Positions 24,182 to 27,505 are shown, counted from the stretch's first letter. The stretch is DNA of 32,000 nucleotides from Candidatus Hermodarchaeota archaeon (GCA_048886185.1 JBHLKY010000014.1:96427-128426), one strand, 5' to 3'. Program-made: numbers and translations. The notes: generated from the sequence alone by a model not told the origin.

Positions 24182-27100
24182 ATGATTGAGAAAGAGTTTC
24201 AGGAGTACATCAAAAATCTGAAAAAGGATCTTGAAACTCAAGTTCAACTAGCCACACAAGCGCGAGGCTGTAAATTAGATCCTCAAACCTCAATAGAGTC
24301 CAAACTTACGTTTAATTCAAGAGCAAAGATAGCTTCAATTCTGAAGATACCAAAATTAGAGGACTATCTCCCAAGAAATCTTTCTCATCATGAAAATCCT
24401 CTCCTTTTGGCAGCTGATATTGCCAAACAGATTGTTAATGGCCGTTTTGTGAAGAAATCTCGTGAAAATCTTATATTACTTGCATTACACAGTTCACTTG
24501 TTATTATCAGCCAAGGATTGATATCTGTTCCTCAAGAAAGCATCCCAAAAATCACAATTGGCTCTAAATCAAATCATTTAACCATTTACTTCTCAAATAC
24601 GATACGATATGCTACCGGAGAGACTATTGGTTTAATAATGTTAATTGCAGATTATATTAGGCAGGTTTTACATTTAAATCGATTTAATCCTTCACCCGAT
24701 CTCATAAATAGGTATGTTGAAGAAATAGAAATTTATACAGCAATGAATGAGCATTTTTTAAATTTACGAATAGATTTATTAAAATTTTTAGTTCAAAATA
24801 TTGGAATCGAAATATCTGGAGAAGCATTCGAACGAATTGAGGTTCGGAGATATAGGAACTTACCTAATTTAACAAATAAATTGAGGATGGGAATGTGTGT
24901 TGCCTTTGAAAAAGTGATTGAAAGCATTAATTCAATTGCTTCTATTCGTTTTAAATCAGGCATCCCTGAATGGGATTGGTTAAAAGGCCCCTTTGAAGCA
25001 ATTAAAAGGGAAAAACACGAATTTGGGCTAAGGGAAGTACGCGGAACTCAACCTTTACTCTCAAAATCTAGGAAACCTGGGGGGTTCAGATTAAGATATG
25101 GCTTTTCACGCAACACAAGCCAAGGCGCAGCAGGAATTCATCCTGTTACAATGTATCTTTCAGAAATGCTCTCTCCAGGCACAAGTATTGCGATAGATTT
25201 TATGGATCGGCCGATTACGGTTTTTCCTGTTTCAACCTTAACAGGTCCTTTAGTTGAATTAAAAGATGGTTCTAGCGAAAGGATTGAATCTATAAAGAGA
25301 ATTCGTGAAATAGAGGACAAAATAGCTCAGATTTGGGAGATGGGAGACATTTTACTCTCTCCGGATGACATTCCAGCAACAGAAACTATTGAATTATCTG
25401 CTTGGACCGAAGAATGGTGGAGTCAAGAAATCAAACTTTCAATTGCCTCAACAAATTTATCAATTGAAACATTGGCAACCAGCTTGAATATTTCCTTTAA
25501 AAAGTTAGAAAGATTACTACGAGAACCCACACATTATCATCCCTCTCCAGAAACAGCTATTAAACTGAGTAATATAACTAAGGTTCCCATCCATCCTTAT
25601 TATTCATTCAATTGGAATGAAATTGCTATCAGTGACCTTATTAGACTGATTCAGATGTTAAATAGCTCTAGTAATAATTTCTTACCAAATGATAGTGACT
25701 TAAAGTATATTCTCAGACAATTAGGAGTTCCTTTCACCATTATCGAGGATCAAATTCAATCTGAACGATTTCAACCATTTATTCTGACATTAAGAGGAAA
25801 AGAAGAAGAATTATCTCAGATTTTATCTGAATCATCGATTCAAATTGAAACTGAAAAAATTGTGACTAGACTCACAAAAATTTCTGTTCGATCATCATGT
25901 CAGAGAAGAATAGGCTTGAAAATCATTCGAGTAGAAAAAGATGAACCACGCCATATAAATCCACCAGCACATATACTTTTTCCTATTGGTTCTCATGGAG
26001 GTACTCAAAGGAACCTTTTAAAGGCAAAAAATGTAGGTACTGTTAATATCCAACTGTCAGAAAGATTTTGTACAACCTGTAAAGAATCAACTTACGTTTC
26101 TTATTGTCAAAATTGTCAACAAAGAACTATACAGAATTTTGTGTGTAAAATGGGGCATGTTTCAGAAACACAAAAGTGTGAGGATTGTGGTCAGTACGCG
26201 TTCTCTGCAAAAATTAAATCCATTGATATCTCGGGATTATTAGACTCAGGATTCCAAAAAACAGGATTCCTAGATTTAAAGATTATTAAAGGAGTCTCCG
26301 TTCTCAACAGTAAAAATCGAATACCAGAACATATAATAAAGGGTATACTACGAGCAAAACACAAAATTTTTGTTTATAAGGACGGAACAAGTCGTTTTGA
26401 TCAAACCAATGCTCATATTACGCACTTCACTCCGAAAGAAATTCATTCCTCTGTTAAAGATCTCATAAGGTTAGGCTATACTCATGACGTTTTTGGAGAT
26501 GACTTGATTAGCGAGGATCAACTGATTGAGATCAACCCTTATGATGTTATAGTGAGTAAAAAGGCTGGAATATTTCTTGTTGATTTATCTAAATTCCTTG
26601 ATGATGAATTAACATTCCTGTATCAATTAGCTCCTTATTACAGAATTAACTCCCTTAATAACATAACTGGTTCATTAATAATAGGTTTATCACCATTCTC
26701 AATGGTTGCAGTTATAGGGAGAATTATTGGTTACACAGATAACAATGTCACCTATGCTCATCCACTTTGGCACATATTAAAAGGTCGAAATTGTAATGGT
26801 GACATCGACTCAATAACATTACTTCTAGATGCCCTACTTAATTTTTCAACTGAATTAATTCCAGCCTTACGCGGAGGAGGAATGGATATACCCTCTATCA
26901 TCAATCTCTCTGATCAATGGGAAGAAACCTCAGCTTATAGCAGTTATGATTCAGTTTCCATGAATCTCTCTTTTTACCAGATGTTAATCAACAATCCTTT
27001 AAAAGAGAAACTTTTATCTTACAAAATGTCTTGTCTTACTCCTTCTTTGCCTATCTTTCATACAATTGATAACATCTCTAGTTATAGCTTTGAGAACCTG

Positions 27101-27505
27101 TTTCGTGAGAGTAAAATAGTCTCCAAAATAGAAACAGAACTACGAGTTCTCAGTCGTATTAGGGGTGTCAAAGCAGGAGAGTTTGTTGACAATATTTTGG
27201 AGAATGATTTTCTGCCAAAAATAACCACATCTTTAACACGATTTTTTCTTCAACCTGCACGCTGCAACACTTGTAATACTACTTTTAGAAGGGTTCCTCT
27301 CTCAAAATGCCCAGTTTGCCATCATCAGACCATTGGATTAACCTTATCAGAAGGATGGGTTCTAAGATACTTACAAATTATTAATCAGTTGAAAGATAGA
27401 TTTAATTCAGACATTTCCGACTATTGTCTTTCCTGGACAGATTTAGTAGATCTAAATAAGCGATTATTATTTGAAAAAGGGCCTCGTCCAACAACACTTG
27501 TTTGA
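24182..27505 (+). CDS. polC: DNA polymerase D large subunit (DP2) homolog, highly diverged and predicted catalytically inactive
   Basis: DP2 hallmarks QARG..LDP, GGFRLRYG.SRN, GPLVELKDG, EEWW, LFPIG..GG, KGILRAKH..FVYKDGT.RFD, THFTP.EI, LGYTHD, GRIIGY, YAHP, LLLDALLNFS, RGG.MD and three Cys clusters. The catalytic motif reads RNCNGDID instead of RNCDGDED. Confidence 0.92.
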   Translation: MIEKEFQEYIKNLKKDLETQVQLATQARGCKLDPQTSIESKLTFNSRAKIASILKIPKLEDYLPRNLSHHENPLLLAADIAKQIVNGRFVKKSRENLILLALHSSLVIISQGLISVPQESIPKITIGSKSNHLTIYFSNTIRYATGETIGLIMLIADYIRQVLHLNRFNPSPDLINRYVEEIEIYTAMNEHFLNLRIDLLKFLVQNIGIEISGEAFERIEVRRYRNLPNLTNKLRMGMCVAFEKVIESINSIASIRFKSGIPEWDWLKGPFEAIKREKHEFGLREVRGTQPLLSKSRKPGGFRLRYGFSRNTSQGAAGIHPVTMYLSEMLSPGTSIAIDFMDRPITVFPVSTLTGPLVELKDGSSERIESIKRIREIEDKIAQIWEMGDILLSPDDIPATETIELSAWTEEWWSQEIKLSIASTNLSIETLATSLNISFKKLERLLREPTHYHPSPETAIKLSNITKVPIHPYYSFNWNEIAISDLIRLIQMLNSSSNNFLPNDSDLKYILRQLGVPFTIIEDQIQSERFQPFILTLRGKEEELSQILSESSIQIETEKIVTRLTKISVRSSCQRRIGLKIIRVEKDEPRHINPPAHILFPIGSHGGTQRNLLKAKNVGTVNIQLSERFCTTCKESTYVSYCQNCQQRTIQNFVCKMGHVSETQKCEDCGQYAFSAKIKSIDISGLLDSGFQKTGFLDLKIIKGVSVLNSKNRIPEHIIKGILRAKHKIFVYKDGTSRFDQTNAHITHFTPKEIHSSVKDLIRLGYTHDVFGDDLISEDQLIEINPYDVIVSKKAGIFLVDLSKFLDDELTFLYQLAPYYRINSLNNITGSLIIGLSPFSMVAVIGRIIGYTDNNVTYAHPLWHILKGRNCNGDIDSITLLLDALLNFSTELIPALRGGGMDIPSIINLSDQWEETSAYSSYDSVSMNLSFYQMLINNPLKEKLLSYKMSCLTPSLPIFHTIDNISSYSFENLFRESKIVSKIETELRVLSRIRGVKAGEFVDNILENDFLPKITTSLTRFFLQPARCNTCNTTFRRVPLSKCPVCHHQTIGLTLSEGWVLRYLQIINQLKDRFNSDISDYCLSWTDLVDLNKRLLFEKGPRPTTLV

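What the first reader, a model, noticed from the sequence alone, without database searches (positions are those of the whole stretch)
24182..27505. Full-length but apparently catalytically dead PolD large subunit (pseudo-polymerase)
Seen: an uninterrupted 1107-aa DP2 homolog whose active-site segment reads HILKGRNCNGDIDS. The first Asp of the DGD motif is Asn (codon AAT at 26795-26797, residue 872), one Arg of KRRN is Gly, and Glu is Ile. Established: DP2 uses the two Asp residues of (R)NCDGDED for metal binding, and this segment is close to invariant. Other normally conserved motifs, recalled from canonical DP2, are also eroded: AGPIRSAGGT -> SNTIRYATGET (24593-24625), GTQxKxERPGK -> GTSIAIDFMDR (25178-25210), GE/DFxENN lost, APHTSAG -> SPFSMVA (26690-26710), PDxxGNL -> PKITTSL. 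A single sequencing error therefore cannot explain the pattern. The 3.3-kb frame has no stop or shift, and structural motifs and Cys clusters are kept. Inference: a DP2 paralog maintained for a non-catalytic role (DNA-binding scaffold, processing platform or regulator). I do not know of a described inactive DP2 family, but cannot exclude one.
Basis: partly seen in the sequence, partly recalled or inferred. Interest (0 to 1): 0.88.

Follow-up and report, generated by a model that had tools for sequence, protein, structure and literature searches.

The report
Catalytically dead PolD large subunit
The only copy of the archaeal DNA polymerase D large subunit (DP2) in this Hodarchaeales (Asgard) genome has lost its catalytic residues yet is kept intact by selection across the whole order; this was briefly reported in 2020 for two related genomes, and the protein most likely survives as a non-polymerising partner of the small subunit DP1 while B-family polymerases copy the DNA.

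Summary
The catalytic Asp (P. abyssi D956) is Asn872 (AAT, 26795-26797).

It is the only DP2 found in a 96%-complete Hodarchaeales (Asgard) genome, so it is the ortholog, not a paralog. All ~20 congeners and two genomes of a sister family carry the same or a worse loss. Other Heimdallarchaeia families keep KRRNCDGDED.

- **Eroded:** the acidic, basic (critical Lys to Arg), steric-gate (His to Phe) and KH-like template motifs, and the C-terminal PIP box.
- **Kept:** the three Zn modules, the RRxP DP1-binding loop and the fold (TM 0.85 to P. abyssi DP2).
- **Selection:** dN/dS is about 0.1 overall and below 0.3 in each domain.
- **Partners:** DP1 keeps 6 of 7 metal ligands. A Pol-epsilon-like PolB occurs in the same genomes as the dead DP2.

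Best reading: a non-polymerising DP2 kept as the structural partner of DP1, with PolBs doing DNA synthesis.

This is not new. Kazlauskas et al. 2020 (NAR) list Heimdall LC3/B3 among groups that "lack active DP2", and the B3_Heim protein is an ortholog of this one. First-stage notes of this scan describe the same thing on two other genomes.

The parts
24182..27505 (+). DP2 (PolD large subunit) gene, 1107 aa, intact, sole copy found in the genome
   Evidence: ORF and translation. Pfam DP2 N, central and catalytic domains. One DP2 locus in G000. AF2 model pLDDT 89.3, TM 0.84-0.85 to P. abyssi DP2.
24593..24625 (+). Degenerate KH-like template-guiding motif (residues 138-148, SNTIRYATGET against canonical GPIRxxGGT)
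   Evidence: The canonical G, P, A, G and T columns are 95-100% conserved in 61 canonical DP2 and replaced in the Hod genus. Role of the PIRxxGGT motif from Raia 2019.
25178..25210 (+). Eroded basic (b) motif of DPBB-1 (residues 333-343). The first Lys is Ala337, the Arg is Phe340, and the critical primer-3'-end Lys is Arg343.
   Evidence: Alignment to P. abyssi. Column 343 is K in 100% of canonical DP2 and R in 71% of the Hod genus. In Thermococcus sp. 9N numbering the residues are K392, R395 and K398; their roles are from Zatopek 2020.
25919..25939 (+). Altered RxGRPEK segment (residues 580-586, KIIRVEK)
   Evidence: Canonical R, G and P (95-100% conserved) are replaced by K, I and V; the R, E and K are kept.
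26069..26188 (+). Zn-I (C630, C633, C642, C645) and Zn-II (C655, H659, C666, C669) modules, ligands kept
   Evidence: Invariant columns in A3 and the regional alignment. In the Hod clade Zn-II is C-x3-H...C-x2-C.
26690..26710 (+). Eroded nucleotide-selectivity (s) motif (residues 837-843, SPFSMVA). The steric-gate His is Phe839.
   Evidence: Column 839 is H in 100% of canonical DP2 and F in 76% of the Hod genus. The equivalent residue in Thermococcus sp. 9N is H931; its role is from Zatopek 2020.
26780..26812 (+). Acidic (a) motif loop (residues 867-877, KGRNCNGDIDS against canonical KRRNCDGDEDA)
   Evidence: The first Arg of RR is lost, D956 is Asn, E959 is Ile. D874 (=D958) is kept here but lost in a sub-clade of the genus.
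26795..26797 (+). AAT codon for Asn872, in place of catalytic Asp (P. abyssi D956 / Thermococcus sp. 9N D964)
   Evidence: sequence; alignment. D964A or D966A abolishes polymerisation.
27164..27502 (+). C-terminal domain (residues 995-1107), the best-conserved part in the genus and the predicted DP1-binding module
   Evidence: Mean column identity 74% in A1. dN/dS 0.03-0.09. 8 of 9 canonical invariant columns kept. Complex prediction with DP1 scored 0.68, best control 0.00. Foldseek hit to the human Pol epsilon CTD, 5vbn_B.
27206..27232 (+). Rewritten clamp-1 segment (residues 1009-1017). Canonical H..PD..GN becomes D..PK..TS, and the new residues are fixed in the genus.
   Evidence: D1009, K1013 and S1017 are 100% conserved in the Hod genus, where canonical DP2 has H, D and N at 98-100%.
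27263..27319 (+). Zn-III module (C1028, C1031, C1043, C1046) with the RRxP loop (R1036, R1037, P1039) that contacts DP1 in PolD
   Evidence: All invariant in A1 and A3. Role of the KxRRxP loop from Raia 2019. R1036 and R1037 lie in the predicted interface (chain 2 residues 42-43).
27461..27502 (+). C-terminal tail (...LLFEKGPRPTTLV) without the canonical C-terminal PIP box
   Evidence: Most canonical DP2 representatives, including Heimdall ones (QRSLTEFF), end in Qxx[LIVM]xx[FYW][FLMI]. All Hod-genus tails end GPRPTTL[IVF]. [quoted passage not shown]

Best explanation
This is the single, orthologous DP2 gene of a Hodarchaeales archaeon. It can no longer polymerise DNA but is kept as a folded, Zn-binding structural subunit.

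Shown:
- The residues that bind catalytic Mg2+, the primer 3' end, the incoming dNTP sugar and the template strand are replaced.
- The C-terminal PCNA/primase-binding peptide is gone.
- The whole fold, the three Zn modules and the Zn-III RRxP loop are preserved under strong purifying selection throughout the order.

Inferred:
- DP2 still pairs with DP1 through its C-terminal domain. DP1 itself keeps 6 of 7 metal ligands and the proton-donor His.
- The DP1-DP2 pair therefore persists as a non-polymerising module. It could be a platform for the DP1 3'-5' nuclease, a replisome scaffold, or both.
- Genome synthesis has passed to B-family polymerases, notably the Pol-epsilon-N-like PolB (group B10) found in the same genomes as the dead DP2.

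My odds: polymerase-dead about 0.9; maintained by selection about 0.97; still binds DP1 about 0.75; the specific downstream role about 0.4.
For: 1. Loss of catalysis.
- N872 replaces D956. D964A or D966A in Thermococcus sp. 9N, and the equivalent P. horikoshii mutants, abolish activity.
- A sub-clade of the genus has also lost the second Asp (CNGATD, CNGVSD), and one species reads CSGNID.
- In a sister family the loop reads RTANGDIDS in one genome and is unrecognisable (RNVFLGAVHV) in another.
- The b-motif critical Lys is Arg or other, the steric-gate His is Phe, the first Arg of KRRN is lost, and the KH-like PIRxxGGT motif is degenerate.
- Of 149 columns at least 90% conserved in 61 canonical DP2, 53 are lost, and the losses cluster in these motifs.

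2. Retention under selection.
- Intact ORFs in about 20 species at 49-78% identity.
- dN/dS is 0.09-0.14 overall, 0.03-0.29 per domain and lowest in the CTD.
- Identity between genome pairs is about the same as for the Pol-epsilon-like PolB and higher than for DP1.
- Many replaced positions are fixed to a new residue (N139, T140, M236, D1009, K1013, S1017, R1062).

3. Fold. The AF2 model has pLDDT 89.3 and pTM 0.88, with TM 0.84-0.85 to P. abyssi DP2.

4. DP1 pairing.
- Zn-III, R1036, R1037 and P1039 are invariant.
- DP1 is found in 20 of 21 congeners, with PDE motifs I, II, IV and V intact and motif III GNHD changed to GEHD.
- The complex model of DP1(150-541) with DP2(995-1107) scored 0.68 against a best control of 0.00. 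That mark was reached by 58 of 80 solved complexes and 2 of 110 mismatched pairs. The runs agree in at least 69% of contacts and the partner's pLDDT is at least 64. Because PolD complexes are solved, this pass may reflect likeness to them.

5. Replacement polymerase.
- The Pol-epsilon-like PolB has ExoI, ExoIII and motifs A, B and C intact.
- It is found in 22 of 23 Hodarchaeales genomes and in 0 of 17 genomes of other Heimdallarchaeia families at E<=1e-20. This is the same distribution as the dead DP2. It is effectively one evolutionary event, not independent replicates.

6. Prior literature agrees (Kazlauskas 2020).
Against: - No biochemical test exists. Asn can still ligate a metal, and D874 and D876 remain in this species.
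- One Hod-type cluster (P0176) reads CDGDID, so both Asp are present there. Its b-motif, KH-like motif and tail are still of the eroded type.
- The former catalytic DPBB domain is as constrained (dN/dS 0.06-0.13) as the rest. A pure DP1 anchor would not obviously need that.
- DP1 was not found in the two sister-family genomes (80-85% complete) that still carry DP2. DP2 may therefore have a DP1-independent role.
- Loss of the cPIP removes the known PCNA/primase tether, which weakens the replisome-scaffold version.
- GINS binding by the DP1 N-terminus could not be supported: it has no sequence match to solved structures.
- In one closed genome (G015) the gene carries a TGA at the invariant Gly237. 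If real, the gene is dispensable there.
Confidence: 0.7

Rival explanations
1. The dead DP2 has been recruited to a new role that does not depend on DP1. Examples would be a DNA- or protein-binding factor tied to the type IV pilus-like cluster that runs into it (DNA uptake or handling), or a regulator.
For: - The DP2 ATG lies 6 nt after the stop of the last of three prepilin-like genes, which have RGQ class III signal peptides.
- The order T2SS-F, pilin-like genes, DP2, CBS, NFACT is conserved in every species of the genus, down to 49% DP2 identity.
- radA lies upstream on the other strand.
- Many replaced residues are fixed to new ones.
- DP1 was not found in the two sister-family genomes that keep DP2.
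Against: - The synteny is confined to one genus. In the sister family, which also has a dead DP2, the upstream genes are a 349-aa ORF and a 1001-aa coiled-coil ATPase-like ORF, with no match to the pilus genes. Shared order within a genus can be plain inheritance.
- The DP1-binding determinants are the best-conserved part of the protein.
- There are no transcript data.
Confidence: 0.15
2. DP2 is still an active polymerase, DNA or RNA, with a remodelled active site that uses N872, D874 and D876 or other ligands.
For: - D876 is invariant and D874 is present in most species.
- The DPBB domain is under strong constraint.
- One cluster has regained or kept CDGD.
- Loss of the steric-gate His would favour rNTP use.
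Against: - D964A alone abolishes activity in the Thermococcus sp. 9N PolD.
- Several species lack both catalytic Asp, and one sister-family protein has no acidic loop at all, yet the genes stay intact.
- The critical b-motif Lys, the phosphate-contacting Arg and the template-guiding KH motif are gone as well.
Confidence: 0.07
3. The gene is a pseudogene in early decay after replacement by PolB.
For: - Catalytic motifs are eroded, and the erosion is progressive across lineages.
- One genome has an in-frame TGA.
- The protein scores below the NCBIfam equivalog cut-offs.
Against: - Frames of 1107-1130 codons are open in about 20 species of an AT-rich lineage.
- dN/dS is about 0.1 overall and below 0.3 in every domain.
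- Divergence equals that of the active PolB.
- The fold prediction is confident.
Confidence: 0.02
4. The Asn is a sequencing or assembly artefact.
For: The window comes from a metagenome assembly, and the position could not be checked in reads.
Against: - The same Asn is present in independently assembled genomes from other studies, including a closed chromosome (CP070695).
- Dozens of other motif changes co-occur with it.
Confidence: 0.01

Closest known systems
Heimdall_B3/LC3-type DP2 (Kazlauskas, Krupovic, Guglielmini, Forterre, Venclovas 2020, NAR 48:10142; PMC7544198)
   Same: - It is the same gene family. The B3_Heim protein (P0199) is 57% identical over residues 700-1107 and reads KSRSCNGATDS.
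- It co-occurs with the same PolB group B10 (Pol-epsilon-N-like, with a C-terminal Zn finger) and with a divergent DP1.
   Different: - The paper treats two MAGs and gives one clause ('lack active DP2') plus a supplementary alignment.
- Here the trait is traced through about 20 species and a sister family.
- New here: purifying selection, erosion of the b-, s- and KH motifs, loss of the cPIP, and retention of the DP1-binding determinants.
- DP1 in this genus keeps the five PDE motifs except for N to E in motif III. The paper calls LC3 DP1 inactive and B3 DP1 possibly active.
Canonical PolD large subunit DP2 (P. abyssi, PDB 6HMS, 6T8H, 8PPT)
   Same: Three-domain architecture, two-DPBB core fold, Zn-I, Zn-II and Zn-III, and a CTD with the RRxP loop. 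TM is 0.84-0.85.
   Different: - The a-motif Asp, b-motif Lys, s-motif His, KH-like motif and cPIP are all changed or absent.
- It scores below the NCBIfam equivalog cut-offs: 787 against 1269, and 678 against 702.
Non-catalytic C-terminal half of eukaryotic Pol epsilon (Pol2-C, an inactivated PolB module with Zn-finger CTD) bound to the B-subunit Dpb2
   Same: Works alike in outline: a dead polymerase module whose CTD holds a DP1-family subunit, next to an active Pol-epsilon-N-type PolB. The window CTD matches the human Pol epsilon CTD structurally (5vbn_B). That Pol2-C is essential and structural is my own knowledge, not tested here.
   Different: - The dead module here is a two-barrel DP2, not a PolB.
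- It is a separate polypeptide.
- A Y2H assay in PMC12680538 found no contact between the Hodarchaeal PolB CTD and DP1.
Eukaryotic polymerase B-subunits and Aenigmarchaeota or Nitrososphaeria-type inactivated DP1 or DP2 (Kazlauskas 2020)
   Same: These are other cases where PolD parts persist without catalysis. Two further DP2 clusters without D956 (P0071, P0133) from another lineage were seen here.
   Different: - In those cases DP2 is absent or DP1 is the inactivated partner.
- Here DP2 is full-length and DP1 keeps nearly all catalytic ligands.

Membership tests
PolD large subunit DP2 (Pfam PF03833, PF24844, PF24846) | N-terminal, central and catalytic-domain architecture | tested here: met
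   All three domains score far above the gathering score. TM 0.84-0.85 to P. abyssi DP2.
PolD large subunit DP2, functional equivalog (NCBIfam NF003103, TIGR00354) | Score above the curated equivalog cut-off | tested here: not met
   787.3 against 1269, and 678.4 against 702.15. NCBI names most orthologs 'hypothetical protein'.
PolD large subunit DP2, active enzyme | Acidic a-motif NxDGD with two catalytic Asp (P. abyssi D956, D958) | tested here: not met
   The motif is NCNGD. D956 is Asn872. 100% D in 61 canonical representatives, against N in 94% of the genus.
PolD large subunit DP2, active enzyme | Basic b-motif with the critical Lys (Thermococcus sp. 9N K398) at the primer 3' end | tested here: not met
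   Arg343 here. K in 100% of canonical DP2, R in 71% of the genus.
PolD large subunit DP2, active enzyme | s-motif PHT with the steric-gate His (Thermococcus sp. 9N H931) | tested here: not met
   Phe839. H in 100% of canonical DP2.
PolD large subunit DP2 | Three Zn-binding modules | tested here: met
   Zn-I and Zn-III each have four invariant Cys. Zn-II is C-x3-H...C-x2-C. Metal binding itself was not tested.
PolD large subunit DP2 | CTD that binds DP1 through Zn-III and the RRxP loop | tested here: inconclusive
   The determinants are invariant. The complex model scored 0.68, best control 0.00, but similar complexes are solved, so the pass may be from memory. No experiment.
PolD large subunit DP2 | C-terminal PIP box (PCNA/primase-binding peptide) | tested here: not met
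   The tail is GPRPTTLV. The canonical Qxx[LIVM]xx[FYW][FLMI] is absent in all 17 genus sequences and present in most canonical representatives.
Heimdall_B3/LC3-type inactive DP2 (Kazlauskas 2020) | Orthology with the B3_Heim or LC3 DP2 and a disrupted active site | tested here: met
   P0199 (B3_Heim) falls among the Hod-type hits, at 57% identity against 40% or less for canonical DP2, and has CNGATD. The LC_3 sequence itself was not retrieved.
Heimdall_B3/LC3-type inactive DP2 (Kazlauskas 2020) | Co-occurrence with a group B10 (Pol-epsilon-N-like) PolB carrying a C-terminal Zn finger | tested here: met
   G000:C16:65994-70352, 1453 aa, with ELDTDG motif C and a terminal C4. Found in 22 of 23 Hodarchaeales genomes searched.

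The most novel reading that the evidence does not exclude
Hodarchaeales may run a split, Pol-epsilon-like replicase. It would have three parts: an active Pol-epsilon-N-type PolB, a dead-polymerase scaffold (DP2), and the B-subunit homolog DP1 held by the DP2 CTD. This is the same logic as Pol2-N, Pol2-C and Dpb2. In this reading the dead module is kept because it anchors or activates the CMG helicase, and possibly supplies an extrinsic 3'-5' nuclease. It would be an archaeal forerunner, or a convergent analog, of the essential non-catalytic half of Pol epsilon.
Probability: 0.15. Interest if true: 0.85.

Novelty: already known. Interest (0 to 1): 0.45.

Why it matters
Hodarchaeales are among the archaea placed closest to eukaryotes (as cited in PMC12680538). 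Eukaryotes keep only relics of PolD: the B-subunits and the CTD.

A lineage in which the whole DP2 is kept but dead, next to a Pol-epsilon-like PolB, is a living example of a replicase being replaced while its scaffold is retained. It makes the non-catalytic functions of polymerase subunits testable.

There are also practical consequences:
- Surveys that score DP2 as 'present' (PMC12680538 does not mention inactivation) may overstate PolD function in this order.
- Annotation is split between 'DNA polymerase II large subunit' and 'hypothetical protein'.

Tried and rejected
- **Read check of codon 26795.** The four holder runs are Logan contigs from the probable source study. The pieces laid covered only 24182-25281, so the position was not checked.
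- **Expression.** No RNA holder was listed, so nothing can be said.
- **Second DP2 in the genome.** None was found with the Pfam catalytic-domain model or with the protein itself.
- **DP1 N-terminal (GINS-binding) domain.** Residues 1-110 gave no meaningful match to solved structures, so GINS docking is neither supported nor excluded.
- **Promoter and terminator scan around the gene.** The sigma-70 type scan is not applicable to archaea and gave counts no different from shuffles.
- **dN/dS reference from canonical Heimdall DP2 pairs.** dS was saturated, with only one usable pair (omega 0.05), so there is no sound comparison of constraint.
- **FastTree of 88 DP2.** The Hod clade (with P0004 and L045) sits on a long stem away from the canonical Heimdall DP2. 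L046 and P0133 are very long branches that join each other. I read this as acceleration and long-branch effects and drew no conclusion on origin.
- **DP1 in the sister family.** Not found with the protein or with PF04042 in two genomes of 80-85% completeness. This is 'not found', not absence.
- **Pilus link.** The synteny is genus-wide but absent from the sister family. I kept it only as a rival.

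
Full report
**Observation**

The frame at window:24182-27505(+) is open for 1107 codons. It matches the three Pfam DP2 domains and the P. 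abyssi and T. kodakarensis DP2 structures (E 6.6e-161). It scores below both NCBIfam equivalog cut-offs: 787 against 1269, and 678 against 702.

Codon 26795-26797 is AAT. In the HMMER alignment, N872 pairs with P. abyssi D956 and D874 with D958. These are the two invariant aspartates shown by mutagenesis to be required for polymerisation (Sauguet 2016; Zatopek 2020: D964A or D966A in Thermococcus sp. 9N abolish activity).

**Whose gene it is**

The window is G000:C14:96427-128426, in a 4.84-Mb assembly that is 96% complete. Orthologs at 55-78% identity lie on records titled Candidatus Hodarchaeota, Hodarchaeales or Heimdallarchaeota, including the closed chromosome CP070695. The organism is therefore a member of Hodarchaeales (Heimdallarchaeia, Asgard).

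The genome holds one DP2 locus only. Each of 20 congeners also holds one; two appear as two matches because the gene is split across contigs. The gene is the ancestral DP2, not a paralog.

**Distribution of the loss**

- All 17 full-length genus orthologs lack the first Asp: CNGDID, CNGDVD, CNGATD, CNGVSD, CNGAND, and CSGNID in one. A sub-clade also lacks the second Asp.
- Among 47 Hod-type 90% clusters, 44 have Asn at this position. One has Ser, one has Lys, and one (P0176) reads CDGDID while keeping the eroded b-motif, KH motif and tail.
- In the sister family of the same order, one protein reads RTANGDIDS and another has no recognisable acidic loop (RNVFLGAVHV).
- Three other Heimdallarchaeia families keep KRRNCDGDED, or carry an intein exactly at NC|, which is typical of a live active site.
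- Among 147 DP2 representatives at the 50% cluster level, the first Asp is missing only in the Hod-type ones and in two others, P0071 and P0133. Those two share a different gene neighbourhood and so belong to another lineage.

**What is lost and what is kept**

I compared the genus with 61 canonical, intein-free DP2 representatives. They have 149 columns that are at least 90% conserved. The genus keeps 96 and has lost 53.

The losses fall in the functional motifs defined by structure and mutagenesis:
- **a-motif:** the first Arg of RR, D956 and E959.
- **b-motif:** the critical primer-end Lys is Arg in 71% of the genus, and the other Lys and the Arg are gone.
- **s-motif:** the steric-gate His is Phe.
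- **KH-like motif:** PIRxxGGT, which guides the template.
- **Other segments:** GR at 289-290, RxGRPEK, and a clamp-1 segment H..PD..GN.

The canonical C-terminal PIP box binds both PCNA and primase. It is present in most canonical representatives, including Heimdall ones. In the genus it is replaced by a conserved tail, GPRPTTL[IVF].

Kept:
- Zn-I and Zn-III, with four Cys each, and Zn-II as C-x3-H...C-x2-C.
- The RRxP loop of Zn-III, which sits in the DP1 groove in PolD.
- The fold as a whole: AF2 pLDDT 89.3 and pTM 0.88, with Foldseek TM 0.84-0.85 to P. abyssi DP2. The CTD also hits the human Pol epsilon CTD.

About a dozen of the replaced positions are fixed to a new residue in the genus. 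That looks like a changed constraint rather than drift.

**Selection**

Pairwise Nei-Gojobori dN/dS is 0.09-0.14 for pairs with dS of 0.35-1.5, and 0.27 for one near-identical pair. By domain it is 0.03-0.29. The CTD is lowest (0.03-0.09) and the former catalytic domain is at 0.06-0.13.

Between the same genome pairs, DP2 identity (about 77%, falling to about 50%) tracks that of the Pol-epsilon-like PolB (75% to 56%) and exceeds that of DP1 (61-71% to 48%). The pseudogene reading fails.

**Partners**

- **DP1.** It lies at G000:C3 (541-560 aa). It keeps PDE motifs I, II, IV and V and the proton-donor His. The motif III Asn ligand is Glu (GEHD) in the whole genus, with GERD in one species. The seven metal ligands are those named. 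DP1 may therefore still be a nuclease.
- **DP1-DP2 complex model.** A model of DP1(150-541) with DP2(995-1107) scored 0.68 against a best control of 0.00. That mark was reached by 58 of 80 solved complexes and 2 of 110 mismatched pairs. The runs agree in at least 69% of contacts and the partner's pLDDT is at least 64. R1036 and R1037 are in the interface. PolD complexes are solved, so this shows likeness to them, not proof that this copy binds.
- **B-family polymerases.** The genome has four PolB genes. One is a 1453-aa Pol-epsilon-N-like enzyme with intact ExoI, ExoIII and motifs A, B and C (ELDTDG) and a terminal C4 finger. This PolB was found in 22 of 23 Hodarchaeales genomes and in none of 17 genomes of the other families at E<=1e-20, the same distribution as the dead DP2. 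These genomes are kin, so this is effectively one event.

**Mechanism proposed**

The residues that contact Mg2+, the dNTP, the primer end, the template, PCNA and primase are gone. The residues that build the fold, bind Zn and contact DP1 are kept. The best-supported reading is therefore a non-polymerising DP2 retained as the structural partner of DP1, with synthesis done by PolBs.

What the DP1-DP2 module then does is inference. One option is a platform for the DP1 nuclease. Another is a replisome role independent of polymerisation: PolD stimulates CMG through DP1N-Gins51 in T. kodakarensis (abstract of PMC9023282).

Points against:
- The cPIP is missing.
- DP1N could not be matched to known structures.
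- DP1 was not found in the two sister-family genomes.
- The DPBB core is more constrained than a mere anchor would seem to need.

**Context**

In every species of the genus, the gene follows directly (6-10 nt) after a type IV pilus-like cluster: a T2SS-E ATPase, two T2SS-F genes, and three proteins with RGQ class III signal peptides. A CBS-domain gene and an NFACT gene lie downstream. radA lies upstream on the other strand.

The sister family, which also has a dead DP2, does not share this neighbourhood. I treat a pilus-linked role as a rival, not as the main reading.

**Comparison with what is known**

Kazlauskas et al. 2020 (PMC7544198) describe a Heimdall_B3/LC3-like group that, with two other groups, differs from the main DP1 clade by having inactive DP1, lacking active DP2, or co-occurring with Zn-finger PolBs. 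They contrast it with Heimdall AB125, which has active DP2 and DP1. Their Suppl. Fig. S16 shows the DP2 active-site alignment.

The B3_Heim DP2 is among the orthologs found here. The core finding is therefore already published, though only in passing and for two MAGs. A 2025 survey of Asgard replisomes (PMC12680538) does not mention inactivation.

- The order-wide extent of the loss.
- The selection figures.
- The erosion of the b-, s- and KH motifs and of the cPIP.
- The retained DP1-binding determinants.
- The genus-wide GEHD change in DP1.
- The conserved synteny.

First-stage notes of this scan describe the same features on two other genomes. They are unverified and were not used as support.

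**Verdict**

Novelty: already known. Interest is moderate, because the function of the retained dead subunit is open and bears on how the eukaryotic replicases arose.

Noticed in passing
window:17813-24175 (+): A type IV pilus-like cluster runs into the DP2 start with a 6-nt gap. It holds a T2SS-E ATPase, two T2SS-F platform genes, a 161-aa ORF, and three proteins with RGQ class III signal peptides (386, 170 and 239 aa). From the last T2SS-F gene through DP2, CBS and NFACT, the order is conserved in all genus members examined, but not in the sister family.
   Followed up: partly
G000:C3:96340-97962 (L032, L050), and L051-L068: DP1 of the whole genus has motif III GEHD instead of GNHD (GERD in one species). 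All other PDE metal ligands and the proton-donor His are kept. This is a conserved Asn-to-Glu change of a metal ligand with unknown effect.
   Followed up: partly
G022 and G023 (sister family of the same order): DP1 was not found with the protein query or with PF04042 in either genome (80-85% complete), although both keep a more degenerate DP2 and the Pol-epsilon-like PolB.
   Followed up: partly
G000:C16:65994-70352 (L049:1495-5853), and orthologs in G003, G008, G018, G020, G021: The Pol-epsilon-N-like PolB (1453 aa) has intact exonuclease and polymerase motifs and a terminal C4 finger. In several congeners the open frame is 1900-2020 aa and the match is split near residues 930-976, which suggests an intein.
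   Followed up: no
L009 (G015:C1:2667766-2671077, closed genome): The DP2 ortholog has a TGA in place of the invariant Gly237 (LRM*MCVA). NCBI calls an 868-aa product. This is either a real nonsense mutation or an assembly error.
   Followed up: partly
P0176 (Logan contigs, 1095 aa): One Hod-type DP2 cluster reads KTRNCDGDIDS, so the first Asp is present. Its b-motif, KH-like motif and tail are of the eroded type. It may be a single-base reversion.
   Followed up: partly
P0071, and P0133 (L082:6001-9249): Two DP2 clusters outside the Hod clade also lack the first catalytic Asp (NCGGEVDS, HNASADD) but keep a PIP-like tail. They share the synteny PcrB, DP2, SHMT, DUF2070, Lhr helicase. In L082, DP1 and Cdc6 are nearby. 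They look like a second, independent inactive-DP2 lineage, possibly the Nitrososphaeria-like group of Kazlauskas 2020. The taxon was not established.
   Followed up: partly
L025, L028-L031, L047, L048 (other Heimdallarchaeia families): Canonical DP2 genes there carry an intein inserted exactly after KRRN, at the catalytic loop. The open frames are 1350-1750 aa.
   Followed up: no
G000:C5:146797-147987 (L035): A third PolB (805 aa) has only a marginal exonuclease-domain match (E 2.7e-4). It may be a PolB2-like divergent form.
   Followed up: no
window:614-5879, and window:14835-15920 (-): A pyrimidine-biosynthesis gene set (aspartate carbamoyltransferase, dihydroorotate dehydrogenase with its Fe-S subunit, an amidohydrolase, OMP decarboxylase) lies at 614-5879. 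radA lies at 14835-15920, upstream of the pilus cluster on the other strand.
   Followed up: no
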